The notes beneath the pieces are model-generated. The model had not been told where the DNA came from, did not search any database, and worked only from the letters and a program-made list of their open reading frames with translations. Source: Candidatus Tayloriibacteriota bacterium (lineage in GTDB: Bacteria; Patescibacteriota; Minisyncoccia; Phycocordibacterales; PALSA-1337). From it: DNA of 64,000 nucleotides. This document shows, piece after piece, positions 10,779 through 60,175 of this stretch. Both the position numbers and the translations under genes were made by a program. Location of the stretch: NCBI GenBank assembly GCA_943354385.1, contig CALRBR010000002.1, positions 4,208 to 68,207 on the forward strand, written 5' to 3'. The first letter of the stretch is position 1; the number at the start of each line of letters is the position of its first letter.

Positions 10779-10923
10779 AAAGCCATTTTGCCTATTTTTA
10801 CGAAATGGCTCTATAGAGCCAAGCTAAACGGCTAAACGTCACGTTTAGCCGTTTAGCTTGTGTAGCCTGGGCCATAAATTTTCAGTAGAAAATTTATGGG
10901 GTTAAGTTATACCGAGCCTATAA

Positions 10924-11008
10924 GGTTACTTCGCTTTATTGGCCTTGACCGAAGATAATACTTTGGTCTGCTCGATTTATATAGTCGCTTTGCTCCTTAT
11001 AAATCGGC
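10924..11008. repeat. family-2 ~85-bp hairpin repeat
   Basis: ggttacttcgctttattggccttgaccgaag...ctcgatttatatagtcgctttgctccttataaatcgg. Contains ccgaag/cttcgg-type hairpin. Confidence 0.7.
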
Positions 11009-11010
11009 AC

Positions 11011-11268
11011 CTACCTCACATCCTTCACCACCATTCCCACCACCTCCCTCTCGCAACGCTTTAAAATCTGCCCCTTTTTAATATAAACCTGACTTTTTTG
11101 GGATAAAGGAATCTTTAGGCTAATCACACCATTTTTATACTGAATCATTTCAACACCTACCACTACCCCACACTCCTCCGATACGATTTTTGATATCGTC
11201 TCCTTCGCAAAACGCTCCTTTAACCCAACATTTTTAAATTTTTCTAGGAAGGAAGCAATGTTGTACAT
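11011..11268 (-). CDS. small protein downstream of dnaN (DUF721-like, tentative)
   Basis: 85-aa ORF immediately 3' of dnaN in the same orientation. Position is typical of the DUF721 family. Similarity not verified. Confidence 0.3.
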   Translation of the reverse strand: MYNIASFLEKFKNVGLKERFAKETISKIVSEECGVVVGVEMIQYKNGVISLKIPLSQKSQVYIKKGQILKRCEREVVGMVVKDVR

Positions 11269-14113: not shown

Positions 14114-14355
14114 AAGTAAAAAAGATTTGTGTGTGCACTCTAGTATATACCTTCTGGAAAAATACTGAACTTGTGGAAAAGACACTTTTATGTGCATATG
14201 TTGGGGATATGCTGGGGATATCGAGCGATACTGGTCGCGAAGACGCTGAGCTCACCAGAGCATAGTGCAGGTCGATGGGAATCTGAGCGAAGCGAAGATA
14301 CGAACAATAATAAAATTAAAAATTTCGTAATTCATGGCCAGATACAAAACCATAA

Positions 14356-14439
14356 GGTTGCTTCGCTCTACTGGCCTTCACCGAGGGAAATACCTAGGTG
14401 CTCTCGATTTATATAGTCGATCCGCTCCCTATAAATCGG
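14356..14439. repeat. family-2 repeat (divergent copy)
   Basis: ggttgcttcgctctactggccttcaccgaggg...ctctcgatttatatagtcgatccgctccctataaatcgg. Confidence 0.6.
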
Positions 14440-14479
14440 GGGGTTGATTTTTTAGCCAAGATGGCGTATGCTATCCCCT

Positions 14480-14629: not shown

Positions 14630-14971
14630 ATGCTCCCTAGAGAAAGGAGAGTACATAAAGAAGAGTTTGGAGAGGTCTTGAAAAAAGGCCTTTCTTTTCA
14701 TTCTGCGCATATTTCCTTGAGAGGGATTAAGAAGGACGATGTCTCCCCTAGCAAGTTTTCTGTAGTGGTCTCAAAAAAGTTTGCTATGCTGGCAGTGGAT
14801 AGAAATCTGATTCGGAGACGAGCGATTGCTGTCATTGAAGCACATGTAACCGGTATGAAAAAAGGTATTTCAGCTATTTTTTCTTTTAAAACAGGTGCAT
14901 CTAAACTTTCATCCCAAGAGATAAAGACGGAGATAATCACTTTGCTCAAGCAGTCTGGACTAATTTCGTAA
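14630..14971 (+). CDS. rnpA: ribonuclease P protein component
   Basis: 113-aa basic protein in the canonical rpmH-rnpA-yidC arrangement. Confidence 0.75.
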   Translation: MLPRERRVHKEEFGEVLKKGLSFHSAHISLRGIKKDDVSPSKFSVVVSKKFAMLAVDRNLIRRRAIAVIEAHVTGMKKGISAIFSFKTGASKLSSQEIKTEIITLLKQSGLIS

Positions 14972-15105
14972 ATCCCTCGACTAACGTCTGCTGAGTCGAT
15001 CGTTTGTGATCGACACCTGTAGACGGCCTCTATGAAAGGAAGAACGTAACCCGAATTAATTCCTCCTTTTCTAAAGGAGGTGGTGAGTACTCGAGACGGA
15101 GGATT
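14970..15105. repeat. MITE/REP-like modular repeat (family 1), copy between rnpA and yidC
   Basis: Contains core gctgagtcgatcgtttgtgatcgacacctgtagacggcc and arm attcctccttttctaaaggagg...gagacggaggatttt. Confidence 0.7.
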
Positions 15106-15153
15106 TTATTATTTTGATTGATTACTCAGACTTAGTGCGCTAATATTACCCTT

Positions 15154-17338: not shown

Positions 17339-18511
17339 CTATGGATTACTGCTAACTTGTGCGTTTGTTAACGCTCTTTCTCGGTCAAGTCCTTTTTGAT
17401 AGGCTTCGTCAATCTTTTTTATTCTTTCACTGGTGTATGCCCTTATCGCTTCTGCCTCAGCGGGGTATGTTTTTAAGAATTTATTATACACTTCGTTACT
17501 TCGTTTGCTGACATCTCTTTTGACATTCCTGATATTTTCCTCGAGCGCCTTTTGGTTGGTTGTTCCACCAGGAACATAAAATCTGGACGCGGCAGTAAGT
17601 GCTTTTTGAATGTCATACTCTTGATCAAGTTTTGTAAGGTCGATAGCTTTTTGGGTCTTGAGCAGGTCGATATTAGAGGTTATTTCCATTGCACCATCAG
17701 GTTCATCTGATTGTTCAATTTCTGATCGTTCTTTTTCTAACTTAAGAATTGCTTCGTTGTAGTTTCTTTCTGTGTTTCTTTTTCCACCGTCGATAATATT
17801 TTTAATTGTTTCCGCATCCTCTTTAGAGGTATCTTTTGAAAAAAACTGAAACACATCATTCTTTATACTTACACTTTCTGCCTTTGCAAGAACGCTGTCT
17901 CTTGCGACGTTGGTTTTACATTTTAACTTCGCGTTATTTGCGGCAACCTCATCTCCTGAGAGTCTTAAATCTTCTGCTTTTTTATTGCATTCGTCGAGCG
18001 CTGCTCTGACAGCGTCGAGCTTTCGATTATTTTCAAGGTATGGATCTACATACTGAATTCGCTTCGCCAATTCTTCTGTTTTTATAGGCTCCAATCCCCC
18101 GCTAAACTCTAGTAGCTGTGGGTTTATGGTATTTAAAATAAGGAAAGAGCCGAGGGCGAGGCCGAGTCCCCAGAGGGCACCCTCGATTTTTTCCTTTCCC
18201 TCGCTTTTTCCCCTGACAGCATCGGTACTCATATACTGGAATCCTCCCCAAATAATCATAAAGACTGCGAAGACACCCGCGAGACCGATACCAATCTTGA
18301 ACATTTCTTTGAGATATGTAGCGATATTTACGCTAGGCTTTGAAACACCACCCACCACCAGAGGCTCGAGGAGGCAGTATTCGTCTTTTGAAGATACACA
18401 CGGTGTTTTTTTCTCAGTAGCTGTTGAACCTGTTGTTTTGGAAACATCTACTTGTGCCTCTACATCTGTTGGAACAACAAAAAAAGCACTGATATAAAAC
18501 ATCACCATCGT
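17339..18511 (-). CDS. membrane protein with VirB2/TrbC-like double hydrophobic hairpin and long coiled-coil C-terminus
   Basis: Signal-like N-terminus, then two hydrophobic helices (IGIGLAGVFAVFMIIWGG / LWGLGLALGSFLIL) separated by a short charged loop, as in T4SS pilins, followed by ~250 aa of coiled coil. Start moved to M94: the upstream 93 codons of the track ORF are encoded by a MITE copy. Confidence 0.45.
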   Translation of the reverse strand, partial: TMVMFYISAFFVVPTDVEAQVDVSKTTGSTATEKKTPCVSSKDEYCLLEPLVVGGVSKPSVNIATYLKEMFKIGIGLAGVFAVFMIIWGGFQYMSTDAVRGKSEGKEKIEGALWGLGLALGSFLILNTINPQLLEFSGGLEPIKTEELAKRIQYVDPYLENNRKLDAVRAALDECNKKAEDLRLSGDEVAANNAKLKCKTNVARDSVLAKAESVSIKNDVFQFFSKDTSKEDAETIKNIIDGGKRNTERNYNEAILKLEKERSEIEQSDEPDGAMEITSNIDLLKTQKAIDLTKLDQEYDIQKALTAASRFYVPGGTTNQKALEENIRNVKRDVSKRSNEVYNKFLKTYPAEAEAIRAYTSERIKKIDEAYQKGLDRERALTNAQVSSNP

Positions 18512-18567
18512 AGCGAGTAGAGTGGATGCGAATACTTTTTTAAGAAAGAGGGTTTTAAGGTTGATAT

Positions 18568-18713
18568 TAATTCCTCCTTTTTTAAAGAAGGCCGTCCACA
18601 GGTGTCGATCACGAACGATCGACACGGCGAGTACTCGAAACGGAGGATTTTGAGCGATGAAAAAATCCCTCCTTCGCAGTAGCGAAGTGCTCCCTTTAGA
18701 AAAGGGAGAATAA
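18568..18713. repeat. family-1 MITE-like repeat
   Basis: Terminal inverted arms aattcctccttttttaaag ... ctttagaaaagggagaataatt. Internal hairpins gtcgatcacgaacgatcgac and ccttcgcagtagcgaagg (CAGTAG loop). Confidence 0.75.
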
Positions 18714-18796
18714 TTCCCGTACAGTCGACATAGAAAAGGGAGAATGGGGAGCGAGTCAGTAAAAAATTTTTTAAAAATAATGTTTTTCATCTTGTA

Positions 18797-19852
18797 TTAA
18801 AAGGCAACCTCTTTACTCTTGGCATCAAAAGATATTGAAAAGTCGTACCCTGCATTTTGGAGAATGTTCCTACTATTTTCTATTCCCACACTTACCCCCA
18901 CACTTCCAGCTTCGGCCTGACCACTCCTCCTTAGAGTGACACGATTTTTCTTTGCTACTCCACTGATATCAGCACCGTTCATGCTCCAGAGATAGTCAAG
19001 GTGTGTTACGGCCGGTGTTTTGCCTGAAAAATAGTATGGCACTGCCACAAAAGTCGCCTCGTCATTGGATAACGTAAATGTATCCAAAAGAGCTTTATTG
19101 TAAAGCACTCCATAGATAGGGTCATCCTGGTAGACCAAAATAGACGGTCTCTCTGGATCGAGCTCAAGATCGGCACTAGCACGAGTCCCGTCAGCCATAG
19201 ACGAAACCTCGACAGAAATCTCAGTCGCCTTTGGCAAGAGGGTTCCTAAAAAAGAAAAGCTGTCCTTACCATACCCTGAGTCACTTCCCTGCACCACTCC
19301 ATCCATACTCCACTTATATACGAGATTTTTAGCGCTCAATTTTTTGCCATTGACCCCCAGCAAATTTGGAATAGCGACCACGGTGACAAAGCCCTGATTG
19401 ACATAGGGTGACCGGCCTTTGTAAAAAGGCGGGGTGTAGCCACTGGTCTCCCAGACGAGGTCGACTTCTCCGGGACGGATGGGAATGTTTTTGCGAATCG
19501 TTCTACCCGAAACAGTAACGATGACAATATCGATAGATGAAGGGGTACCGAGAGACCCCGTGCGGAACTCAAACCGATTCAAACCAATCGCTTTTTGCAT
19601 TTGTTTACCATTTAAAAACCAGGCGATGGTAGCGCGGTCGAGATCGGTAGAATAATTTTTAACAGTAACACTGACGAGTGTATTTGGACCAGGGCGACTC
19701 GGTGACACTTCTATTTCCAAAGCATCGGGGATAGCGGTCATGAGCTGGGCGTGCAAAGGTGTAAGAGGAGTGCAAAACAAAACCCCAGCGAGTAAGGCAA
19801 ATCCAAAGATACAAAATTTTTGAGAAACGAAAGAATAGGAGTTTGACCGCAC
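18797..19852 (-). CDS. secreted hypothetical protein
   Basis: Signal peptide FVSQKFCIFGFALLAGVLFCTPLTPLHAQ. Start set at GTG 19852: no ATG precedes the signal peptide, and the upstream part of the track ORF is MITE-derived. Confidence 0.4.
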   Translation of the reverse strand: MRSNSYSFVSQKFCIFGFALLAGVLFCTPLTPLHAQLMTAIPDALEIEVSPSRPGPNTLVSVTVKNYSTDLDRATIAWFLNGKQMQKAIGLNRFEFRTGSLGTPSSIDIVIVTVSGRTIRKNIPIRPGEVDLVWETSGYTPPFYKGRSPYVNQGFVTVVAIPNLLGVNGKKLSAKNLVYKWSMDGVVQGSDSGYGKDSFSFLGTLLPKATEISVEVSSMADGTRASADLELDPERPSILVYQDDPIYGVLYNKALLDTFTLSNDEATFVAVPYYFSGKTPAVTHLDYLWSMNGADISGVAKKNRVTLRRSGQAEAGSVGVSVGIENSRNILQNAGYDFSISFDAKSKEVAF

Positions 19853-19853
19853 C

Positions 19854-19998
19854 AATTCCTCCTTTTTTAAAGTAGGCCGTCCACAAGTGTCGATCACAAA
19901 AGATCGACACGGCGAGTACTCCAGACGCAGGATTTTGAACGTTGAGAAAATCCCTCCTTCACAGTAGTGAAGTGCTCCCTTTAAAAAAGGGAGAATAA
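19854..19998. repeat. family-1 MITE-like repeat
   Basis: Same architecture. Hairpin ccttcacagtagtgaagg. Confidence 0.75.
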
Positions 19999-20042
19999 GA
20001 AAAATTCTTTGAGAAAGTTTCCATTTCATTGCATATATTTTA

Positions 20043-20549
20043 TCATACCCGTGGTCGGATGTCTTGCATCGATCTCTCGGGTGGCTGTGGAGAATTAATC
20101 GGCATGTTTGTATCTGGAGAAGATGTGTCATTTGGTAATGGAGGTGGACCAGATCTGGGGCTGTTTTGTGCTGGACCTTCTTGACCTTCTTGTCCTTTTG
20201 CATTGGCTTCAGCTACCATTTTACCTCCAGGGACTTTCGCTAGGGCCTCCTCCGCCTTGACGGTGCTCCAGGTAAAGAGTATATCCGCAGTCCACAGTGG
20301 GAGTGCATCTACACCTGGAATCATTTCACCCACAAAAGCGCCAAGCATTGCCAGCATTCTTTTTGGGTTCGCGAGTTTGACACCCTGGGTTCGCAAGAAG
20401 AGTGGAAGCCCGACCCCAATAGCGATGTCTATAAAACGATTAACCACAACCCCAATAGCAAAAAAATCAAGGACAATCTGTAGAATGTCTATTATTACAA
20501 ATAGACCAACGAGCAGTCTCCACCTAGTTTTAGTAAGTCTACAAGCCAT
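20043..20549 (-). CDS. small polytopic membrane protein with Pro-rich tail (pilin/VirB2-like candidate)
   Basis: 168 aa. Two to three TM helices followed by a disordered P/Q/G-rich C-terminus. Confidence 0.4.
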   Translation of the reverse strand: MACRLTKTRWRLLVGLFVIIDILQIVLDFFAIGVVVNRFIDIAIGVGLPLFLRTQGVKLANPKRMLAMLGAFVGEMIPGVDALPLWTADILFTWSTVKAEEALAKVPGGKMVAEANAKGQEGQEGPAQNSPRSGPPPLPNDTSSPDTNMPINSPQPPERSMQDIRPRV

Positions 20550-20578
20550 TTGGGAAGTTTAAAGTTTAAGGATTTTGA

Positions 20579-20724
20579 GTTATTCTCCCTTTGTAAAGGC
20601 CGTCTACAGGTGTCGATCTCGAACGATCGACTCAGCAGACCAGCAGGCTGAGGATTTAGGAGATTCGGGTTTCAAATCCCTCCTTCACAGTAGTGAAGTG
20701 CTCCCTTTAAAAAAGGGAGAATAA
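20579..20724. repeat. family-1 MITE-like repeat
   Basis: Same architecture. Precedes the virB4-like ATPase gene. Confidence 0.75.
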
Positions 20725-20728
20725 CCCA

Positions 20729-22537
20729 CTACTGGTTCGCCAGCTCGTCTTTTGCTCGCTTTATAGCGAGGACCTGCTCGGGGTTGGTGGTGATGATCTG
20801 GTCCTCGGTGTATGAAGCGATCACCTTGATAGCCACATGTTTGAGGCCGACAAAGAAGATCCCCTCTCCAATATCCGACTCGAGCAGGAGATACTTCTCC
20901 TCGTCGGTAAGGTTGAAGGTTTTTTGAAGTATATCCATCGAAGACGGCGACTGCTTGAGCAATATCTGAATAGAAGAGTTGGTAATAATCGGCAATCCGT
21001 AAGGAGATTTTAGAAAGTCGTCCACGTCTTGAGTAATAGTCGCAAGGCCGAGATAGTATTTTCGTCCTCGTTTTGCGAGCCCAAGCAAGAACGATGCGGT
21101 GTCATCGGATTTCATCATCCACCATGCCTCGTCGATGACGAGTAGACGCTTTTTGAGATTCTTGCGGATAGCGTTCCAAATATAGTGGGTGACAATGTAC
21201 ATGGCTACCGGCTTGAGCTCGTCTTCCATGTCGCGGAGAGAAAAGACCACGAATTTTTTATTGATATCTACATTTGAAGGTCGATTGATAAAGCCCGACC
21301 AAGTACCTTTTGTATATTTACTGAGCTTTTGTACCAGCGACTCCCCTCCTTCCATGCCCGCAAGCACGAGCTCAAAGTCAGAGAGAAGTGGTGGCTCAAC
21401 ACTTTTAAAATCAGACTCGGCGGTGATATCTTTGAGTGCGTATGTCTCGGTAATAGCTCGGTCGATGATCGCGTCCTCCTCCTGAGTCAGTCCCCCCATC
21501 ATGATACGGAAAAGGCCCACGAGATTGACAATGTTTGAGCGGAGTACATCCGAGGCCGACTCGTCTTCTCGAGGTATTGGAAGGTCAAAGGGATTTATAT
21601 GGTGTTCTGAAGTAAGTGAAATATTGAAATATCTACCACCCACTGCTTCAGACATGTACTCGTATTCTTTTTCTGGGTCGATGACGATAACTTCAGTTTC
21701 AAACATTAGTGTTCGGAGTATTTCCAGCTTTACGGCGTAGGACTTACCAGAACCGGCTTTGGCAAAGGTTACTGAGTTGTAGTTTTCTAGCAGGAAGCGG
21801 TCAAAAAGAACGAGGCTGGAGTTGTGACGGTTGATACCATATAGAATACCTTTGTCAGAGGTGAGGTCAAATGAGACGAATGGAAAAAGACTTGAAAGTG
21901 GTGAGGAGTTGAGCTTTGAGTGCACATTGAGCTCATCGGTAGCAATAGGTAAAATACTTTTGTACCCTTGCTCCTGCTGGAAAAGGGCGGGCTTGAGGTA
22001 GACGAGCTTTGATTCCAGTACTGATTTTATCTCGGACTCTGTTTTGTCGAGCTCCCCTGCACTATCTCCATATATAGTAATGTATACACCGACGTCAAAA
22101 AGTTTCTCCTGGGCCTGCTGGAGATTGTCGCGAAGCTGTTCGAGATCACGATAAGCGGTGTCGAGCATCGGATCGCGCACGAGACCTTTTTCTTCTCGTA
22201 CATTGATCTGGCTTTGTACCTCGGCTACCTTTTTCTGAAATGTTCGGAGAGCTTTGGCGGTATCTACCGGGTGAATGAAAATAGAAATATTAAAAACTTT
22301 GTCGAGGTTTATGATTGGTGCAAACCAGCTATCGGAAAGAAAGCGAGGGTATGAGATCACGAAAAAAGTGCGGGCAATTTTCTCTCCTAGATTGAGTTCT
22401 TTTGGACTGACTTTCAGCGCAGATGGAGCAATAATGTCTTTTAGCTCGAGTATGCCAGCCTCATATATTTGCTGTGGCAAAATAGATGCGATGGGCACCT
22501 CTTTTTTACTTCCAAATAAATTAGAAAATATTCCCAT
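20729..22537 (-). CDS. VirB4/TrbE/CagE-family type IV secretion ATPase (C-terminal ATPase region)
   Basis: 602 aa. Walker A FAKAGSGKSYAV, Walker B LLVIDEAWWMM, conserved VirB4 motifs (VIDPEKEY, ATQ). Lacks the usual N-terminal ~200 aa. Confidence 0.8.
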   Translation of the reverse strand: MGIFSNLFGSKKEVPIASILPQQIYEAGILELKDIIAPSALKVSPKELNLGEKIARTFFVISYPRFLSDSWFAPIINLDKVFNISIFIHPVDTAKALRTFQKKVAEVQSQINVREEKGLVRDPMLDTAYRDLEQLRDNLQQAQEKLFDVGVYITIYGDSAGELDKTESEIKSVLESKLVYLKPALFQQEQGYKSILPIATDELNVHSKLNSSPLSSLFPFVSFDLTSDKGILYGINRHNSSLVLFDRFLLENYNSVTFAKAGSGKSYAVKLEILRTLMFETEVIVIDPEKEYEYMSEAVGGRYFNISLTSEHHINPFDLPIPREDESASDVLRSNIVNLVGLFRIMMGGLTQEEDAIIDRAITETYALKDITAESDFKSVEPPLLSDFELVLAGMEGGESLVQKLSKYTKGTWSGFINRPSNVDINKKFVVFSLRDMEDELKPVAMYIVTHYIWNAIRKNLKKRLLVIDEAWWMMKSDDTASFLLGLAKRGRKYYLGLATITQDVDDFLKSPYGLPIITNSSIQILLKQSPSSMDILQKTFNLTDEEKYLLLESDIGEGIFFVGLKHVAIKVIASYTEDQIITTNPEQVLAIKRAKDELANQ

Positions 22538-22628
22538 GGGATAATTATAGCTTAAATGTTGACGAGCACGAAATTCTTTCTTGGAGTATATTGTGGTTTT
22601 TCATGAGAGTTGTTGTCATTTTTTTGTA

Positions 22629-22743
22629 TTATTCCTCCTTTTCTAAAGGAGGTGGCTCGTACTCGAGACGGAGGATTTGTGTCTTCTGGTAAAATCCCTC
22701 CTTTCCAGTAGTGAAGGGATCCCTTTAGGAAAGGGAGAATAAT
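22629..22743. repeat. family-1 MITE-like repeat (short form) between the two virB4-like ORFs
   Basis: attattcctccttttctaaaggagg...cctttccagtagtgaagggatccctttaggaaagggagaataat. Confidence 0.75.
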
Positions 22744-22750
22744 ACAGTGC

Positions 22751-23398
22751 CTACGTCAACTGTATTGGCTTTTCCATATCTCCTGGATTGAAAATGCGGT
22801 AGTAGAGCTCGATAATTTCTTCGGTACCGAGCTGTACCACGCGAACACCAGATCTGACGAGTCCCTGCTCTACCACACTCATTCTTTGCTCTAGCTGACT
22901 GCGGTGTTCCTCAAAATCCTCTATTTTCTGCTTACCAGCATCTTCGGATACAGAAGGTTTTTTTCCTAGAAGCTTGCCCATGAAGTTATCTTTTGTTTGC
23001 AGGAGCGGTGGTGAGTATGGGATAACAACAAAAAAGCTTTTGGTCATGATGCTCGAGTTGTCGGTAAAGTTTTTGATAAATTCGATATATTCTCGCGTCT
23101 GAATTTTCATCAAGTCCCCCATTTGTTCCTTGTATCTGTTTTCGAGGAGTGCAATATAGGGTCTGATGTCTAGGCGTTTTGATTGTACAAATATTTGTAT
23201 AGAAAAATCTAGGGAGTTTAATAAATTTTGAAACTGATAGATGATGGAGTTTTGCTCGTCGGTCGATTTGAGAGCGAAGTTTAGAGATGAAGCCATGAGT
23301 ATTCCACGCATACCACCGTCTTTGAGAATGACCACGCCATTTTTGACCTCTTTGATCGGAACAAAATCTTGAGTTGTTTTTGAGCTTGCAGTCGCCAT
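22751..23398 (-). CDS. hypothetical protein, candidate detached N-terminal domain of VirB4
   Basis: 215-aa ORF immediately upstream of the VirB4 ATPase, separated from it by a MITE copy. Combined length (817 aa) matches full-length VirB4. Confidence 0.4.
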   Translation of the reverse strand: MATASSKTTQDFVPIKEVKNGVVILKDGGMRGILMASSLNFALKSTDEQNSIIYQFQNLLNSLDFSIQIFVQSKRLDIRPYIALLENRYKEQMGDLMKIQTREYIEFIKNFTDNSSIMTKSFFVVIPYSPPLLQTKDNFMGKLLGKKPSVSEDAGKQKIEDFEEHRSQLEQRMSVVEQGLVRSGVRVVQLGTEEIIELYYRIFNPGDMEKPIQLT

Positions 23399-23445
23399 AG
23401 GTAAATTATATCATGAGATGTCCAGAAGTATGAAATGCCTTGCAT

Positions 23446-23591
23446 CATTCCTCCTTTTTTAAAAGGAGGCCGTCTACAGGTGTCAATCATAAACGATTGA
23501 CTCTGCTGGTACTCCAGACGGAGGATTTTTAACTCTAACAAAATCCCTCCCTCACAGTAGTGAAGGACTCCCTTTAGAAAAGGGAGAATTA
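23446..23591. repeat. family-1 MITE-like repeat
   Basis: Full-length copy with CAGTAG hairpin cctcacagtagtgaagg. Confidence 0.75.
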
Positions 23592-23620
23592 GTTCTCGTA
23601 AATCTTGCTTCTACCCAAAT

Positions 23621-24061
23621 CTACCTCTGTCTCTTATCCGAATATACACTGTTGTTTATATCCAAACTCCAAGTAAGATCCTTGAGCTTACTGTCGGAAA
23701 GCTTTGGTACAGAAAGCATTGGAATGTCCTCCGTCGATTCGTCGGGGACACCACTTACTACTGGCCGATCATGTTTTTTCCAAATATATAATTTTTCATT
23801 TACCACATATTTGAACGCAGATTCTACCAGAGCAGAAAAAGGCATCGGGCTCGGATTGTAGGGTTTATAAAAGGCTAGAGCTCCTGCAAAAGCGAGGATA
23901 GGTAGGATCAGGATAAGACTAATATAGATAGGCACAGGCAGAAACTGGTACACCATAAAAGACATTCCTAGTCCCCCACCCATATATACAAACTGTTTAA
24001 AGGTCAGCTGGCCAAATATCTTGTCTTCTATTTCTATAAATTGTGGGACTTGGAAGCGCAT
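23621..24061 (-). CDS. VirB3/PrgI-like small membrane protein
   Basis: 146 aa. N-terminal QF.EIEDKIFG..T..QF motif followed by two TM helices. Positioned directly upstream of virB4-like genes, as VirB3 usually is. Confidence 0.4.
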   Translation of the reverse strand: MRFQVPQFIEIEDKIFGQLTFKQFVYMGGGLGMSFMVYQFLPVPIYISLILILPILAFAGALAFYKPYNPSPMPFSALVESAFKYVVNEKLYIWKKHDRPVVSGVPDESTEDIPMLSVPKLSDSKLKDLTWSLDINNSVYSDKRQR

Positions 24062-24105
24062 GGGGCAAGCTTAAAATTAAAAATGCAAAGTTTGAGAGTC
24101 TTGAG

Positions 24106-24160
24106 TTATTCCTCCTTTCCTAAAGGAGCTGGCTCGTAATCGAGACGGAGGATTTAATCT
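24106..24160. repeat. family-1 repeat, left half, flanking DUF559 gene
   Basis: ttattcctcctttcctaaaggagctggctcgtaatcgagacggaggattt. Overlaps the last codons of the DUF559 ORF. Confidence 0.6.
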
Positions 24161-24482
24161 CTCGCACGACACTCTCTATATTATACCTCACATCCGCATC
24201 ACTAAACCTAAGGAATCGGATACCTTTTAATTCTAACATATTCTGTCGAATAATGTCCGCTTCGACTTTACTATCATGACTCACCCCATCTATCTCTATA
24301 GCTAGGTTTAAAGTGTGGCAGTAAAAATCAACGATATATTTATTAACAGGTCTTTGTCGTAAAAATTGATATCCAAGTTTTTTCTTTTTTAACTCTTTCC
24401 ATAATAATACTTCTGCAAGATTGCCTGATTTGCGTAGGTTTTTTGCAAGAGGCTTGAGATTTTTATGATAGATGAGCTTCAT
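24120..24482 (-). CDS. DUF559 (Vsr/PD-(D/E)xK-like) endonuclease-domain protein
   Basis: 120 aa. Characteristic ...YIVDFY...LAIEIDG..H.... pattern. Last ~12 codons are encoded by a MITE arm. Gene is nested between two halves of a MITE copy. Confidence 0.7.
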   Translation of the reverse strand: MKLIYHKNLKPLAKNLRKSGNLAEVLLWKELKKKKLGYQFLRQRPVNKYIVDFYCHTLNLAIEIDGVSHDSKVEADIIRQNMLELKGIRFLRFSDADVRYNIESVVREIKSSVSITSQLL

Positions 24483-24497
24483 TTTTTAATGAAATCT

Positions 24498-24636
24498 AAA
24501 TCCTCCGCCTTTCAGGCACCTCCTTTAGAAAAGGAGGAATAATTCGGAATCCATACCCATTCTCCCTTTCCTAAAGGCCGTCGACAGGTGTCGATCACGA
24601 ACGATCGACTCAGCAGGCTCCAAGCCGAGGGATTTG
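24498..24636. repeat. family-1 repeat, right half plus additional core module, flanking DUF559 gene
   Basis: aaatcctccgcctttcaggcacctcctttagaaaaggaggaataattc followed by ccattctccctttcctaaaggccgtcgacaggtgtcgatcacgaacgatcgac... Confidence 0.6.
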
Positions 24637-25527: not shown

Positions 25528-27624
25528 TTATACACGCCAGCGATCCGTTTTTCCTATCGGATCACTGATGTAATTAAAGGCGGGATGGGTAGGAATTTGA
25601 CCCATTATTTTATTTCCAATATCTATCTTTATAGATTCATCAAGATCATTAGTTAATTCCTTTAATTTGCCAATTTTTAATTCTTTAATAAAATCTGGAT
25701 TGTTGACGATCGCGGCTCTGCTGGGACCTTCAATTATTTCTATAAGGTCTTTTGCGGGCAAGGAAGCAAGCATTTTTTTAATCTTAGCGGAATCATTCGA
25801 GATTAGGGCATCATTTCTCTGCTTAGACATCTCGGCTTTAATAGCAATTTTGGTCGGTTGTTCAATGCTACTACCCAGTAACTTTTTAAGCCTGTCTGGG
25901 TTTTCAGAAATTGCTTCTACGAATTTTGTACTAGACAGTACTGCGGGATCAAGATTTTCAATCTCGCTATCACTGAGCTTGTCTAATTCTTTGGTAACAT
26001 CTGTTCCTGCTGTGGCCCCATCTTTTATGTTTTTTAGACGTGCGGTTCTAAGCTCCGCTTTCCTTTCTTCAGGAAGCTCACTCTTTTCAGACATATGTTC
26101 TGCCTGACCTTTATTGAGATGTGGCATAAGTTTCTCTAATTGTTCTTTTTTTAACCCAAGTGATTCTATTTGCTTACCAGACATATTTTTAACCTCATTG
26201 AGCATCGCTAGGTGTTCTGGGCTAGTAACACTCGCACCTATACCACTTACTATAGTAGCTCTTTTCTTTATGGAATCTTGCTTGGTCGCATTTTCCTTAT
26301 CTCTATCCCCTTGATCCTTGAAAGATCTTTCCCCTCCAAATTTATTTTTTGCCAAAGCACCTATGCTACTTTCACGTAAAGATCTACCGAGGCCTGTGTT
26401 TCCAATCCAGGTGTTTCCCGCTAGTTTATCTAGGTTAGAACCAGCCCATCCAAGGGTATTTCTCGCTGCCCAGCTACCCCCAAGTCTCGGCAATGCCAAG
26501 CCAACATTCTTTGCCCACCCTTCAAATGTAGCCGCTCCCTTCACCCCAAACTCCTTTGCAATAATGAGTGATGCCATGAGGAAGATGATGATGACGCAGT
26601 AGTTGAAGATCACAGCAATAGACCCTCCACCAGTCAAGGCCGAGATGGATCCATTGCCGGGATTGACCGCCGCCTGAAAGCCAGGAGAAGCCACGATCTT
26701 GATTCCCACATAGGTGACCGCGAGATAGACAGGCATAAAGAGGCATTGGTCCATAAGGGCAGACCACCATTTGTCAGCTTGAGCTTTCGCTTTACCACCG
26801 AGGGCTTGCCCCGCAAAGGCAATCGGCGAGGTAACCATGAGTAGGAGGAGTATGACGATACGCACCATAAAGAAGAAGGCGGCAGCCAGGAAGACGATGG
26901 AGGCAATGAGCATGACGATGGAACCCATGATGGTATTGATAAGAAGTCGAACGAAGGGTGGTGCTTCAGCACTCGATGCCGAGCCAGCGAGCTTGTCGTT
27001 TTTAAGGCCTGGTTTTAACCCGGATGGATCATAGGTGGTCTGGATGTAGAGGCTGTCCATGAAAATGGCGGAAAGGCCGGTTCTCTTAAGCCCAAATACT
27101 TTACTAGTACTTAAGTCTCCATCAGGATTCGGTACCAATGCTTTATAAAAACCCAGAGACACCACGTTAGACGCGTCGATCACCAGCTTAGTAAAGAAAA
27201 GACTGAAATTTATAAGAAGACCTGCGATGACAACAGTCATGAGTACCTTCTTGGCATTTTCTTTGCCCCCGCCGACGCCCAGGATGGTGGTGATGGCGGT
27301 GTACAGAAGGATAAAGATAAAAAACATGGTACAGAGATCACGGAAGACTTTCCAACCGGTCTCGATGGCAGGAATTTTTTCGACCAGACTGGCGATATTG
27401 AGAGTCCAGTTGAGCGAGTAGTCGAGGAGCAGTCCAGAGATGTAGATAAAGAAGGACATGGCCTGGAGGACCATGTTTCCCATAAATTGGGCAATACTTT
27501 CGATCGGGCTATCGGCAAATTTTAATATTGCTAATGCTTGTGCGTGTGCTTCATGTACCCCAAAAACCCCGGTCCATCCGAGGATAAGTGCAACTATGAA
27601 AATGTGAGGAAGATATTTTTTCAT
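25528..27624 (-). CDS. VirB6/TrbL-like polytopic inner-membrane protein
   Basis: 698 aa. Signal peptide, at least eight TM helices with Gly-rich loops, ~250-aa hydrophilic C-terminal domain. Architecture matches T4SS VirB6/TrbL. Confidence 0.55.
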   Translation of the reverse strand: MKKYLPHIFIVALILGWTGVFGVHEAHAQALAILKFADSPIESIAQFMGNMVLQAMSFFIYISGLLLDYSLNWTLNIASLVEKIPAIETGWKVFRDLCTMFFIFILLYTAITTILGVGGGKENAKKVLMTVVIAGLLINFSLFFTKLVIDASNVVSLGFYKALVPNPDGDLSTSKVFGLKRTGLSAIFMDSLYIQTTYDPSGLKPGLKNDKLAGSASSAEAPPFVRLLINTIMGSIVMLIASIVFLAAAFFFMVRIVILLLLMVTSPIAFAGQALGGKAKAQADKWWSALMDQCLFMPVYLAVTYVGIKIVASPGFQAAVNPGNGSISALTGGGSIAVIFNYCVIIIFLMASLIIAKEFGVKGAATFEGWAKNVGLALPRLGGSWAARNTLGWAGSNLDKLAGNTWIGNTGLGRSLRESSIGALAKNKFGGERSFKDQGDRDKENATKQDSIKKRATIVSGIGASVTSPEHLAMLNEVKNMSGKQIESLGLKKEQLEKLMPHLNKGQAEHMSEKSELPEERKAELRTARLKNIKDGATAGTDVTKELDKLSDSEIENLDPAVLSSTKFVEAISENPDRLKKLLGSSIEQPTKIAIKAEMSKQRNDALISNDSAKIKKMLASLPAKDLIEIIEGPSRAAIVNNPDFIKELKIGKLKELTNDLDESIKIDIGNKIMGQIPTHPAFNYISDPIGKTDRWRV

Positions 27625-30500: not shown

Positions 30501-31448
30501 TTATTTCAATGCGTGTGCAAGAGTTTTCCACTGTTTTAGATCTAGGTCCTCGGCGCGAGTGTCGATGGCTATACTGAGGGCAGAAAAAGTGTTTTCGAGG
30601 GTAGTTTTTTCGGCAATTGTCTCGAGATTTCTGATTAATTTCTTTCTTTTGTGAGCAAAACCAGCTTTGATGAGTTTGAAAAAGAATTCTTGTGAGTCCA
30701 TTCCTCCTTTTTTAAAGGAGGTGCTCAGTACTCTGGGCGGAGGATTTAAAATCCCTCCCCCTACTGGTACTGAGTCGATCGTTTTTGATTGACACCCGTC
30801 GACGGCCTTTATGAAAGGGAGAATGGGGAGAGATGCTGTCTGTCCCGTTGTGTTACTTTCTATAAAAAACTGATCTGAAATGTTGTCGATAAGCAAAATA
30901 GCTGAGTCAACAGACGGCACAGGATTAAAAGAACCAGCACTGACTGTCTGTATGTATTTTGGAGAGCCGTAGGCTTTTACTGAAAGCGACAAAATACTCT
31001 CTTTTGCATCCTTTGCCACAATTCTTCTCGCCACTTCTTTTTGGAGCATAAGAGTCATGAGAGATGGCTGTGTGTCTGTCTCGAGAAACTTTTGAATGAG
31101 CTCGCCAGTGATGTAGTAAGGTATATTGGCGACGAGTTTGTATTTGCCAGCCAAAATACCTAGGTCTTTTGGGGACATGTCGAGAATATCGCCGTGAATG
31201 AGCTTTAGTTTACCAGAAGTCACTTCCCCTCCAAAACGTTCCGAAAGATGAGGGATCATGCGGTCATCTTTTTCCACTGCGATCACTTGAGCGCCAGTTT
31301 TGAGTAGAAATTCTGTCAGAACCCCTTTTCCAGGACCAATCTCCAGGACAATATCATCTTTTGTCACTCGCGATGCTTCCACCATAGCGTGCACTGCACC
31401 CATAGAATGGAGGAAATTTTGACCGAGAGACTTTTTGGCGGGGATCAT
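30501..31448 (-). CDS. ksgA: 16S rRNA (adenine1518/1519-N6)-dimethyltransferase RsmA/KsgA, carrying a ~43-codon in-frame repeat insertion
   Basis: N-terminal GQNFL, SAM-binding LEIGPGKG, C-terminal FFKLIKAGFAHKRKKLIRNL matching KsgA. Residues ~201-250 are encoded by MITE copy 30698-30827. Confidence 0.85.
   Translation of the reverse strand: MIPAKKSLGQNFLHSMGAVHAMVEASRVTKDDIVLEIGPGKGVLTEFLLKTGAQVIAVEKDDRMIPHLSERFGGEVTSGKLKLIHGDILDMSPKDLGILAGKYKLVANIPYYITGELIQKFLETDTQPSLMTLMLQKEVARRIVAKDAKESILSLSVKAYGSPKYIQTVSAGSFNPVPSVDSAILLIDNISDQFFIESNTTGQTASLPILPFIKAVDGCQSKTIDSVPVGGGILNPPPRVLSTSFKKGGMDSQEFFFKLIKAGFAHKRKKLIRNLETIAEKTTLENTFSALSIAIDTRAEDLDLKQWKTLAHALK
30698..30827. repeat. family-1 MITE-like repeat inserted in frame within ksgA
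   Basis: ccattcctccttttttaaaggagg...gtcgatcgtttttgattgacacccgtcgacggcctttatgaaagggagaatgg. Lies entirely inside the ksgA ORF without a stop. Confidence 0.75.
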
Positions 31449-35517: not shown

Positions 35518-35656
35518 CATTATTCTCCCTTTGCAAAGGGAGCACCGACAGTACTCTGGCGCGGAGGGATTTGAAACTTAAATCCCTCGGCCTGGAGCCT
35601 GATGAGTCGATCGTTTGTGATCGACACCTGTAGACGGCCTTTACAAAGGGAGAATA
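35518..35656. repeat. family-1 MITE-like repeat
   Basis: cattattctccctttgcaaagggagc...gtcgatcgtttgtgatcgacacctgtagacggcctttacaaagggagaataga. Confidence 0.75.
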
Positions 35657-35766
35657 GATCACCATCTCAGCTACTCGCTTCCGAAGCCCTTTTAAAAGAT
35701 ATACCTTCAACACATTTCGTATAATTCGAACTAATTTTTTATTTCTCACTATGCTATACTGTCGAA

Positions 35767-44143: not shown

Positions 44144-44232
44144 CCCGATTTATAAGGAGCAAAGCGACTATATAAATCGAGCGGACCGAAGTAGTCTCTT
44201 CGGTCAAGGCCGATAAAGCGAAGCAACCTTAT
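44144..44232. repeat. family-2 repeat (inverted orientation)
   Basis: ccgatttataaggagcaaagcgactatataaatcgagcggaccgaagtagtctcttcggtcaaggccgataaagcgaagcaacc. Confidence 0.7.
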
Positions 44233-44307
44233 TGTATTCAGTCCTAGAGCCATATTATCGGATTTTATTATCTTTCTATCTTCCAATCAAGTACTATCTG
44301 TGGGGGG

Positions 44308-58577: not shown

Positions 58578-58598
58578 GTAGGGTAGGCATCTTAGTCC

Positions 58599-58727
58599 AT
58601 TCCTCCTTTTCTAAAGGAGGTGGCTGGTACTCCAGACGGAGGATTTTAAATCCCTCGGCTTGAAGCCTGCTGAGTCGATCGTTTGTGATCGACACCTGTA
58701 GACGGCCTTTAGAAAAGGGAGAATGAA
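58599..58727. repeat. family-1 MITE-like repeat
   Basis: ccattcctccttttctaaaggagg...gtcgatcgtttgtgatcgacacctgtagacggcctttagaaaagggagaatg. Confidence 0.75.
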
Positions 58728-58771
58728 TACAAAACCTCTGCGACCCAAAATTGCGGAGTGTTTTTGAAAGA

Positions 58772-59907: not shown

Positions 59908-59996
59908 GCCGATTTGTAGGAAGCGGAGCGACGATACAAATCGAGCGGACCGAAGTACCCCCTTCGGTCAAGGCCGATAAAGCGAAGCAACCTTAT
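59908..59996. repeat. family-2 repeat (inverted)
   Basis: ...gcggagcgacgatacaaatcgagcggaccgaagtacccccttcggtcaaggccgataaagcgaagcaacc. Confidence 0.7.
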
Positions 59997-60007
59997 TGAA
60001 TTTGAAA

Positions 60008-60083
60008 ATCCATCGGCACGGAGCCTTCTGAGTCGATCGTTTGTTGATCGACACCTGTAGACGGCCTTTACAAAGGGAGAATG
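60008..60083. repeat. family-1 repeat fragment (core plus right arm)
   Basis: ctgagtcgatcgtttgttgatcgacacctgtagacggcctttacaaagggagaatg. Adjacent to a family-2 copy. Confidence 0.6.
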
Positions 60084-60175
60084 TATCCCACGAAATTGCT
60101 TCCGCAATTTTGTGGGTCTTTCCTCTTTTCCTTGTTAGTACAAACCCCCAACATGCGATAAAATAGAGATACAAA

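What the first reader, a model, noticed from the sequence alone, without database searches (positions are those of the whole stretch)
20729..23398. VirB4 appears split into N-terminal and ATPase ORFs with a MITE between them
The 602-aa VirB4-like ATPase lacks the usual ~200-aa N-terminal domain. A 215-aa ORF sits immediately upstream on the same strand. The two are separated by a 115-bp family-1 repeat (22629-22743) plus ~90 bp. Their combined length matches full-length VirB4 proteins. Either the repeat inserted into an ancestral single gene, leaving a two-piece VirB4 or a pseudogene, or the domains are naturally separate in this lineage. Both outcomes bear on whether the T4SS-like locus is functional.
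Basis: inference. Interest (0 to 1): 0.55.

Follow-up and report, generated by a model that had tools for sequence, protein, structure and literature searches.

The report
Two-gene VirB4 is normal here
The secretion-system motor VirB4 is encoded here as two neighbouring genes, which is the normal, already published arrangement (TrsD plus VirB4) in Patescibacteria, and the repeat between them landed later in a spacer that already existed, so no gene is broken.

Summary
A 215-aa ORF (22751-23398, -) sits 213 bp upstream of a 602-aa VirB4-like ATPase ORF (20729-22537, -), and a ~120-bp palindromic repeat lies in the gap.

The 215-aa protein is a homologue of the VirB4 N-terminal module. NCBIfam profiles of full-length VirB4 match it at their N-termini. 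The top 14 Foldseek hits to its AlphaFold model are all TrwK/VirB4 chains.

The split was not caused by the repeat:
- In 81 of 81 related Patescibacteria loci the two pieces are separate genes, with a median spacer of 6 bp, often stop + 1 nt + ATG.
- The relatives at 95% and 90% identity have 4-bp and 28-bp spacers and no repeat.
- Only the window's own lineage (98-100% identity) carries repeat modules at this site.
- Both genes stayed under strong purifying selection after the insertion (49 synonymous to 4 nonsynonymous changes, and 188 to 8).

The arrangement VirB3-like/PrgI, then TrsD-like, then VirB4 matches staphylococcal pSK41 (TrsD + TrsE) with the same break point. It was described for Patescibacteria in 2025 (PMC12102498), where the TrsD homologue is reported as essential in one cultivated species.

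Verdict: a known architecture that is most likely functional. Low interest.

The parts
22751..23398 (-). Gene for a stand-alone 215-aa TrsD-like protein, the N-terminal module of VirB4
   Evidence: NCBIfam matches fall on the N-termini of full-length VirB4 profiles: VirB4_plasma 100-233/894 (E 2.8e-11), CD1110 2-117/752, VirB4_CagE 5-168/792, TrbE. The TrsD/TraD family matches at E 3.4e-7. The precomputed Pfam annotation on the identical protein P0001 is PF26593 TraC-like. The AF2 model has pLDDT 83.7. The top 14 Foldseek PDB hits are all TrwK/VirB4 of R388 (best E 4.5e-4, prob 1.00, TMq ~0.5). At least 8000 homologues exist, and the top 120 are all 209-242 aa.
20729..22537 (-). Gene for the 602-aa VirB4-like ATPase, comprising the rest of the N-terminal half plus the P-loop domain
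   Evidence: NCBIfam CD1110-family VirB4 scores 383.4 bits against a cut-off of 325, covering profile positions 185-733/752. Pfam P-loop_TraG scores 93.1 bits and AAA_10 44 bits. Walker A (GKAGSGKS-like 'AKAGSGKS') and Walker B ('LLVIDEAWW') are present in the translation. It is collinear with pSK41 TrsE from residue 34 to TrsE residue 36 (E 3e-33).
22538..22750 (-). 213-bp intergenic spacer between the two genes
   Evidence: It contains three further in-frame stop codons. The same spacer is 1-28 bp in repeat-free relatives.
22625..22746 (.). Palindromic mosaic repeat (module A plus module B) with 25-nt terminal inverted arms
   Evidence: Inverted arms at 22625-22649 and 22722-22746 are 88% complementary. 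The hairpin fold has z = -3.75. Module copies occur elsewhere in the window. The element is absent at this site in L088 (95% identity) and L006 (90%). In L091 (98% identity) the same site holds a different set of modules. It matches no Rfam family.
22544..22549 (-). TATAAT box 6 nt upstream of the ATPase ATG, a candidate own promoter of leaderless type
   Evidence: The geometry matches the box upstream of the 215-aa gene and three other genes in the window. The box is conserved as TATAAT in L091 and TATACT in L006. Function is inferred, not shown. The consensus promoter scan did not call it because the -35 is weak.
23405..23434 (-). Promoter-like site upstream of the 215-aa gene (TTCATA, 18 nt spacer, TG-TATAAT), ending 6 nt before the ATG
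   Evidence: It is the best promoter-like match in 20500-24200, with 10 of 12 positions and an extended -10 TG.
23447..23591 (.). Another copy of the repeat family, in the spacer between the PrgI-like gene and the 215-aa gene
   Evidence: Families D1 and D3.
23621..24061 (-). PrgI/VirB3-like membrane protein gene (146 aa), first gene of the VirB3-TrsD-VirB4 triplet
   Evidence: Pfam PrgI scores 38.9 bits against a cut-off of 27. The same position is occupied in all related loci inspected.
25528..27624 (-). VirB6/TrbL-like polytopic membrane protein gene (698 aa) of the same locus
   Evidence: It is 40% identical (E 1e-115) to the L004 protein that carries the precomputed Pfam families TrbL and TrbL_3. 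It has no direct Pfam hit of its own.

Best explanation
This is the standard chromosomal type IV secretion locus of Patescibacteria (Paceibacteria/Taylorbacteria-like). In it, VirB4 is made from two separately encoded polypeptides.

The first is a TrsD-like 215-aa protein carrying the first ~170-215 residues of the VirB4 fold. The second is a 602-aa protein carrying the remainder, including the P-loop ATPase. The gene order is PrgI/VirB3-like, then TrsD-like, then VirB4. The split is ancient. It lies at the same boundary as TrsD/TrsE of staphylococcal pSK41 and pGO1.

By inference from the R388 structures, the small protein docks non-covalently onto the ATPase. It links the ATPase to the VirB3-like membrane anchor encoded just upstream.

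In the window's own lineage only, a mosaic of palindromic intergenic repeat modules inserted into the pre-existing short spacer. This stretched the spacer from a few bp to 213 bp and removed tight translational coupling. The ATPase gene is most likely still expressed, either by read-through or from a TATAAT box 6 nt upstream of its ATG (leaderless-type). Both genes have remained under strong purifying selection since the insertion.

Shown: homology, fold, gene separateness across relatives, lineage-specific insertion, and selection.
Inferred: physical assembly of the two proteins, and the route of ATPase expression.
For: Homology of the 215-aa protein to the VirB4 N-terminus:
- Five full-length VirB4/TrbE profiles match it at their N-terminal 2-233 positions. 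The 602-aa protein starts at profile positions ~185-289, so the two tile a full VirB4 without overlap.
- The Foldseek top 14 hits are all TrwK/VirB4 chains.

The split is ancestral:
- 81 of 81 related loci have a stop codon followed by a separate ATG. The set comprises 77 representative genomes from the genome-contig scan plus four close relatives looked up individually (L004, L005, L006, L088).
- The median spacer is 6 bp and 53 of 81 are 10 bp or less. Twelve are stop + 1 nt + ATG and six are ATGA overlaps (sequences).
- Of the best 150 cluster representatives only one (P0170, 797 aa) is fused.

The repeat came second:
- L088 (95% aa identity) has a 4-bp spacer and L006 (90%) a 28-bp spacer, with no repeat there.
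- L091 (98%) has a 197-bp spacer. It shares both junctions with the window but has different internal modules.

Selection:
- dN/dS is 0.01-0.05 against L088 and L006.
- Against L091, codon differences are 49 synonymous to 4 nonsynonymous (TrsD-like) and 188 to 8 (ATPase).

Precedent:
- pSK41 has trsD (227 aa) 14 bp upstream of the 672-aa TrsE, preceded by a small protein. TrsE residue 36 aligns with ATPase residue 34.
- Bacillota plasmids also carry split pairs.
- PMC12102498 reports 2,272 TrsD homologues in Patescibacteria, 1,664 of them next to virB4. It says the TrsD homologue of Ca. Southlakia epibionticum is listed as essential.
Against: - No experimental data exist for this organism. Assembly of the two polypeptides and expression of the ATPase gene after the insertion are inferred.
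- Similarity to the curated TrsD/TraD family is far below its cut-off (30.3 against 200 bits). A direct profile comparison with pSK41 TrsD is weak (hhalign E 3.8e-4, probability 36%).
- A sequence profile search of the PDB found nothing, so the link to solved VirB4 rests on the predicted fold (TM ~0.5).
- The local Pfam copy gave no hit for the 215-aa protein. PF26593 is known only from precomputed annotation.
- Synonymous sites against L088 and L006 are near saturation, so those dN/dS values are rough.
Confidence: 0.9

Rival explanations
1. The repeat (a MITE) inserted into a single ancestral full-length virB4 gene. It created a stop and left either a pseudogene or a newly two-piece VirB4.
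For: The repeat lies exactly between the two pieces, and the two ORFs are in the same reading frame. Fused VirB4 is the rule in most other T4SS classes (profiles). One fused Patescibacteria protein exists (P0170).
Against: - All 81 repeat-free or differently occupied related loci already have the stop and a separate ATG, mostly in different frames.
- The 95% and 90% relatives have 4-bp and 28-bp spacers without the repeat.
- The ends of both proteins are conserved up to the stop and from the Met onward.
- Both genes are under strong purifying selection.
Confidence: 0.02
2. The split is natural, but the repeat insertion has a polar effect that silences or weakens the ATPase gene. On this view the T4SS locus of this lineage is decaying.
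For: - The insertion removes the tight coupling seen in most relatives and introduces a strong hairpin (-46 kcal/mol).
- The -35 element of the putative ATPase promoter is weak and the consensus scan did not call it.
- Repeats have invaded nearly every spacer of the locus.
Against: - Since the shared insertion, the window and L091 lineages accumulated 188 synonymous but only 8 nonsynonymous codon changes in the ATPase gene, and 49 to 4 in the TrsD-like gene.
- All ORFs of the locus are intact.
- No terminator-like site (hairpin plus T-run) was found in the spacer.
- A TATAAT box sits 6 nt from the ATG, as in other genes of the window.
- Other species tolerate 100-500 bp insertions at the same spot, including whole small genes.
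Confidence: 0.05
3. The 215-aa protein is an unrelated accessory protein that merely sits upstream of a naturally short VirB4. Its resemblance to the VirB4 N-terminus is spurious.
For: There is no hit in the local Pfam copy and no sequence hit in the PDB. Individual NCBIfam scores are all far below the curated cut-offs.
Against: - Five independent full-length VirB4/TrbE profiles all place it at their N-termini.
- The fold search returns only VirB4 chains in the top 14, followed by a sharp drop to E > 0.2.
- A fused relative aligns residues 6-214 to the small protein and 225-796 to the ATPase.
- Published work states the same homology for TrsD.
Confidence: 0.02

Closest known systems
Patescibacteria T4SS with TrsD + VirB4 (Quinonero-Coronel et al., Microb Genom 2025, PMC12102498; Wang et al., Cell 2023, on Ca. 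Southlakia epibionticum)
   Same: It has the same components and order: PrgI/VirB3-like, then a TrsD-like stand-alone VirB4 N-terminal homologue, then VirB4, with VirB6-like and pilin-like genes nearby. The window's proteins are 60-100% identical to those of many Paceibacteria and Taylorbacteria MAGs.
   Different: The only difference is the 213-bp spacer filled with palindromic repeat modules. Relatives typically have 1-10 bp. The paper does not describe such insertions, as far as my text search showed.
TrsD + TrsE of Staphylococcus aureus pSK41/pGO1 (MPF_FATA, pGO1 subclass); TraD + TraE of pIP501, by the NCBIfam name 'TrsD/TraD family'
   Same: A small protein (227 aa) is encoded immediately upstream of a VirB4-like ATPase that lacks the N-terminal module (672 aa). 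It is preceded by a small membrane-protein gene. The break point is the same: ATPase residue 34 aligns with TrsE residue 36.
   Different: The sequences are only remotely related: 24% identity for the ATPase, and the TrsD HMM scores 30 bits against a cut-off of 200. That system is plasmid-borne and conjugative, with a relaxase and coupling protein. This locus is chromosomal, and I saw no relaxase in the part I examined.
Full-length VirB4/TrwK of plasmid R388 (PDB 7O43, 7O42, 7O41, 8RTB, 8RTD)
   Same: The predicted fold of the 215-aa protein superposes on TrwK chains (E 4.5e-4 to 3e-2, prob 0.96-1.00, TMq 0.42-0.52). The ATPase part is homologous by sequence.
   Different: In R388 the two parts form one ~820-aa polypeptide. 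Identity is 11-14%.
Mosaic palindromic intergenic repeats (REP/BIME of enterobacteria; MITEs)
   Same: The elements are short, intergenic and hairpin-forming. They are multi-copy, built from modules that combine differently at different sites, and have terminal inverted arms.
   Different: There is no sequence relation to any described family (Rfam gave none). No target-site duplication was seen and no cognate transposase was identified. The comparison rests on form and on my own knowledge of BIMEs, not on a test.

Membership tests
VirB4-family T4SS ATPase (NCBIfam NF045971, CD1110 family; Pfam P-loop_TraG/AAA_10) | Score at or above the curated family cut-off | tested here: met
   The 602-aa ORF scores 383.4 bits against a cut-off of 325. 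P-loop_TraG scores 93.1 against 25.8, and AAA_10 scores 44 against 27.5.
VirB4-family T4SS ATPase | Walker A and Walker B nucleotide-binding motifs intact | tested here: met
   'AKAGSGKSYA' and 'RLLVIDEAWW' are present in the translation. They were read directly and not tested biochemically.
VirB4-family T4SS ATPase | Single polypeptide covering the whole family profile, including the N-terminal ~180 positions | tested here: not met
   The 602-aa protein covers profile positions 185-733 of 752. Positions 2-117 are matched by the separate 215-aa protein.
TrsD/TraD family (NCBIfam NF041427) | Score at or above the curated cut-off (200 bits) | tested here: not met
   The score is 30.3 bits, E 3.4e-7, aligned over 6-126 to profile 12-142 of 201. 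hhalign against pSK41 TrsD gives E 3.8e-4 and probability 36%. It is a remote homologue, not a member at NCBI's threshold.
TrsD/TraD family | Stand-alone ~200-aa protein encoded directly upstream of an N-terminally short VirB4-like ATPase, homologous to the VirB4 N-terminus | tested here: met
   The adjacency is conserved in 81 of 81 related loci.
Pfam PF26593 (TraC-like) | Match to the family model | tested here: inconclusive
   Precomputed annotation lists PF26593 for the identical protein P0001 and for all 120 listed homologues. My hmmscan against the local Pfam copy returned nothing for this protein, and nothing for that region of P0170. The model is probably absent from the local copy.
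Patescibacteria T4SS (as defined in PMC12102498) | Co-located VirB4, TrsD, PrgI/VirB3, VirB6 and VirB2-like pilin genes on the chromosome | tested here: met
   PrgI is supported, TrsD-like and VirB4, and VirB6/TrbL-like through orthology to L004. The pilin family PF18895 is seen only on orthologous positions in relatives and was not tested directly on the window protein.
MITE | Terminal inverted repeats, small size, multiple copies | tested here: met
   The arms are 25 nt and 88% complementary, and the element is ~122 bp. Each half has 4-5 copies in the window.
MITE | Target-site duplication, and a unit that transposes as a whole | tested here: not met
   The flanks GCAC and AAAA show no duplication. 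The two halves occur independently elsewhere. The same site in L091 holds other modules.

The most novel reading that the evidence does not exclude
The trsD-virB4 spacer may be a recurrent landing site for palindromic mobile elements across Patescibacteria.

In 8 of the 82 related lineages examined, counting the window's own, the spacer exceeds 100 bp. The inserts include hairpin repeats and whole 23S-rRNA-IVP genes flanked by inverted repeats.

In this lineage a previously undescribed mosaic (BIME-like) repeat family has colonised nearly every spacer of an otherwise compact T4SS operon. The operon is reported as essential in a cultivated relative. The family exchanges modules at a fixed site between strains whose TrsD-like protein is 98% identical. 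It may have converted a translationally coupled pair into separately initiated, leaderless-type genes.
Probability: 0.25. Interest if true: 0.35.

Novelty: already known. Interest (0 to 1): 0.12.

Why it matters
The result matters mainly as a caution for annotation. A short VirB4 preceded by a small 'hypothetical' gene in Patescibacteria, and in some Bacillota plasmids, is not a broken gene. It is the normal two-polypeptide VirB4 (TrsD + VirB4).

The T4SS locus in this window therefore looks intact, and nothing new about T4SS biology follows from the split. The only mildly new element is the lineage-specific spread of mosaic palindromic repeats into the spacers of this operon. That belongs to a separate finding about the repeat family.

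Tried and rejected
- Local Pfam scan of the 215-aa protein gave no family. The PF26593 model seems to be missing from that copy.
- A profile search of PDB sequences with a 32-sequence alignment gave no hit even at E 10. The link to solved VirB4 came only from the fold search.
It was repeated with the closer alignment A2.
- My first automatic start-codon assignment (first ATG/GTG/TTG after the upstream stop) over-extended several ATPase ORFs and gave false overlaps of -60 to -103 bp. I replaced it with starts anchored on the alignment to residue 1.
- Rfam gave only four tRNAs in the window and nothing on the repeats.
- The terminator scan found no terminator-like site in the spacer.
- I considered programmed frameshifting or read-through joining the two ORFs and rejected it. 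The spacer has three further in-frame stops. Relatives have the genes in different frames with ordinary stop-then-ATG junctions.
- I considered the fused P0170 as the ancestral state. Its junction keeps an internal 'MG' where the separate ATPase genes start, and it is 1 of 150 representatives. A secondary fusion or an assembly error is therefore more likely. No phylogeny was made to prove it.
Full report
**The observation**

The window holds a 215-aa ORF at 22751-23398 (-) and a 602-aa ORF at 20729-22537 (-), separated by 213 bp. The spacer contains a palindromic element. Its 25-nt inverted arms lie at 22625-22649 and 22722-22746 and are 88% complementary. It folds into one long hairpin (MFE -46.3 kcal/mol, z = -3.75, none of 200 shuffles as stable).

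The element is a juxtaposition of two modules, and each module has four or five further copies elsewhere in the window, not always together. The ~87 bp next to the ATPase start is unique in the window.

**What the two ORFs are**

The 602-aa protein is a VirB4-family ATPase.
- It scores above the curated cut-off of the NCBIfam CD1110 VirB4 family (383.4 against 325 bits), but covers only profile positions 185-733 of 752.
- It passes the Pfam P-loop_TraG and AAA_10 cut-offs.
- Its Walker A and B motifs are intact.

The 215-aa protein matches the N-terminal ends of five full-length VirB4/TrbE profiles: VirB4_plasma 100-233/894 (E 2.8e-11), CD1110 2-117/752, VirB4_CagE 5-168/792, and two TrbE models. 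It also matches the stand-alone TrsD/TraD family (E 3.4e-7). All of these scores are far below the curated cut-offs.

An AlphaFold2 model built on a 32-sequence alignment has mean pLDDT 83.7. Its 14 best Foldseek matches in the PDB are all TrwK/VirB4 chains of the R388 T4SS (E 4.5e-4 to 3e-2, prob 0.96-1.00, TM ~0.5). After these the hits drop to unrelated proteins at E > 0.2.

A fused relative (P0170, 797 aa) aligns residues 6-214 to the small protein and 225-796 to the ATPase.

**Was the split caused by the repeat? No.**

*The small protein is a widespread stand-alone protein.*
- At least 8000 database clusters match it. The top 120 are 209-242 aa long and come from Patescibacteria MAGs.
- Among 50%-identity representatives, 2302 match at E <= 1e-3. 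Of the best 150 only P0170 is fused to an ATPase. The other long ones (270-443 aa) carry disordered P/Q/T-rich tails instead.

*Gene neighbourhoods show separate genes everywhere.* I analysed 81 related loci: 77 representative genomes from the genome-contig scan (of at least 575 matches), plus L004, L005, L006 and L088 looked up individually.
- Every one has a stop codon ending the small gene and a separate ATG for the ATPase gene.
- The median spacer is 6 bp, and 53 of 81 are 10 bp or less.
- Twelve are stop + 1 nt + ATG, and six are ATGA overlaps (junction sequences).

*The closest repeat-free relatives date the insertion.*
- L088 (95% aa identity) has a 4-bp spacer.
- L006 (90%) has a 28-bp spacer.
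- Neither has the repeat there.
- Only the window's own lineage has it: L001 and L002 are identical, and L091 is 98% identical.

L091 shares the first ~31 nt and the last ~20 nt of the spacer with the window, but holds different modules in between. The site was therefore occupied once and has since been remodelled.

**Are the genes still functional?**

- Against L088 and L006, dN/dS is 0.01-0.05 for both genes. Synonymous sites are close to saturation, so these values are rough.
- Against L091, which shares the insertion, codon differences are 49 synonymous to 4 nonsynonymous in the small gene, and 188 to 8 in the ATPase gene.
- Purifying selection has therefore continued after the insertion.
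- The spacer has no hairpin-plus-T-run terminator by the consensus scan.
- A TATAAT box ends 6 nt before the ATPase ATG (22544-22549). The geometry matches the strong promoter-like site in front of the small gene (TTCATA, 18 nt, TG-TATAAT, 23434-23405) and three other genes of the window. None of these has a visible Shine-Dalgarno sequence.
- I infer that the ATPase gene is expressed either by read-through or from its own leaderless-type promoter. This is not shown.

**Comparison with what is known**

The arrangement is published. Quinonero-Coronel et al. (Microb Genom 2025, PMC12102498) found TrsD to be the most abundant T4SS component in Patescibacteria. [quoted passage not shown] They report 2,272 homologues, 1,664 of them next to virB4, and say the TrsD homologue of Ca. 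Southlakia epibionticum is listed as essential. A 2025 review repeats that these T4SSs are essential for epibiotic growth (PMC12857230).

The prototype is pSK41/pGO1.
- In pSK41, trsD (227 aa) ends 14 bp before the 672-aa TrsE gene and follows a small protein gene.
- TrsE residue 36 aligns with residue 34 of the window ATPase (E 3e-33), so the break point is the same.
- The TrsD-to-TrsD similarity is weak (hhalign E 3.8e-4, probability 36%).

Bacillota plasmids show further split pairs. A Pontibacillus plasmid has a 274-aa protein overlapping the start of a CD1110-family VirB4 gene. A Clostridium sporogenes plasmid has PrgI followed by a 257-aa 'TraC family protein'.

**Mechanism**

From the R388 cryo-EM structures, and as summarised in PMC12102498, the N-terminal part of VirB4 contacts VirB3 and ties the ATPase hexamer to the membrane. 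My best-supported model is that the 215-aa protein does the same job in trans. It would bind the PrgI/VirB3-like protein encoded just upstream (23621-24061) and the 602-aa ATPase. The homology, the fold and the conserved gene triplet are shown here. The physical assembly is inferred.

**The locus as a whole**

The locus also holds a VirB6/TrbL-like protein. The 698-aa product of 25528-27624 is 40% identical to the L004 protein that carries TrbL families. Downstream genes have orthologues in relatives that carry the T4SS_pilin family. This matches the published Patescibacteria set.

**Verdict**

The architecture is already known. The repeat is a secondary, lineage-specific insertion into an intergenic spacer with no sign of gene damage. 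Interest is low.

Noticed in passing
window 14967-15116, 18569-18713, 19854-19998, 20587-20724, 22625-22746, 23447-23591, 24103-24165, 24517-24635, 30695-30828, 35578-35660, 58594-58728, 60045-60087: A family of hairpin-forming modules (repeat finder families D1-D4, D7, D8) fills nearly every intergenic spacer of the T4SS locus and several others, in varying combinations. The relatives at 90-95% identity (L006, L088) have almost none: one 23-nt match in L088. This looks like a recent lineage-specific expansion of a mosaic (BIME- or MITE-like) repeat in a small Patescibacteria genome. It has no Rfam match.
   Followed up: partly
L091 5649-5845 compared with window 22538-22750: A strain whose TrsD-like protein is 98% identical has the same insertion site and identical junctions but different internal modules. 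These resemble families D4, D7 and D8 of the window. The pattern suggests module exchange at a fixed site rather than independent insertion.
   Followed up: partly
window 17339-18790 (-) and 18797-20203 (-): The long ORFs of 483 and 468 aa begin inside repeat copies (18569-18713 and 19854-19998). Their first ~60-120 residues are repeat-encoded, for example '...ILRLEYSPCRSFVIDTCGRPTLKKEE...'. Orthologues in relatives are 388-396 aa and 345 aa. The true starts are probably further downstream, so public gene calls (483 and 410 aa) look over-extended.
   Followed up: partly
L042 4315-4756; also L064 4628-5077 and L013 4634-5129: In other Patescibacteria species the same trsD-virB4 spacer holds a 440-500-bp insert. 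In L042 it encodes a 23S rRNA-intervening-sequence protein (PF05635, 129.5 bits) flanked by inverted repeats. The inserts in L064 and L013 encode ORFs that look like the same family by eye, but only L042 was scanned. L060, L063, L038 and L023 have 105-194-bp palindromic or tandem-repeat inserts. In total 7 of 81 loci have spacers over 100 bp.
   Followed up: partly
window 24120-24482 (-): A DUF559 / restriction-endonuclease-like gene (120 aa, 96.9 bits) sits between the 283-aa gene and the PrgI-like gene, flanked by repeat modules. L006 and L088 have a NYN-domain gene on the opposite strand at this position. L004, L005 and L091 have nothing there. The slot inside the T4SS operon is variable.
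   Followed up: no
window 23405-23410, 22544-22549; also upstream of the ATGs at 2722, 35767, 57855: A -10-like hexamer (TATAAT, TACAAT or TATACT) ends 6-7 nt before the ATG of several genes, and no Shine-Dalgarno sequence is visible upstream of most genes. This suggests frequent leaderless or SD-independent initiation in this organism.
   Followed up: partly
window 10921-11012, 14353-14444, 44145-44238, 48772-48863, 53927-54020, 59909-60002: A second, unrelated ~92-94-nt repeat family (D5 and D6, apparently the same unit in both orientations) has 78-92% identity between copies.
   Followed up: no
L007 544-2937 (P0170): This is the only fused TrsD-VirB4 protein (797 aa) among the 150 best representatives. 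It lies next to yidC, rnpA, dnaA and dnaN. The junction keeps an internal Met-Gly where separate ATPase genes start, which suggests stop-codon loss or an assembly error.
   Followed up: partly
P0256, P0178, P0228, P0180, P0188, P0196 (C-terminal tails); P0144, P0264 (N-terminal tails): Some stand-alone TrsD-like proteins of other Patescibacteria carry 100-230-residue low-complexity tails rich in P, Q, T and A. These tails have no ATPase similarity.
   Followed up: no
L087 4641-6474: In this locus the ATPase match is broken into two tblastn pieces, and my first pass found only a 368-aa ORF. It may be an interrupted or frameshifted virB4 in that MAG.
   Followed up: no
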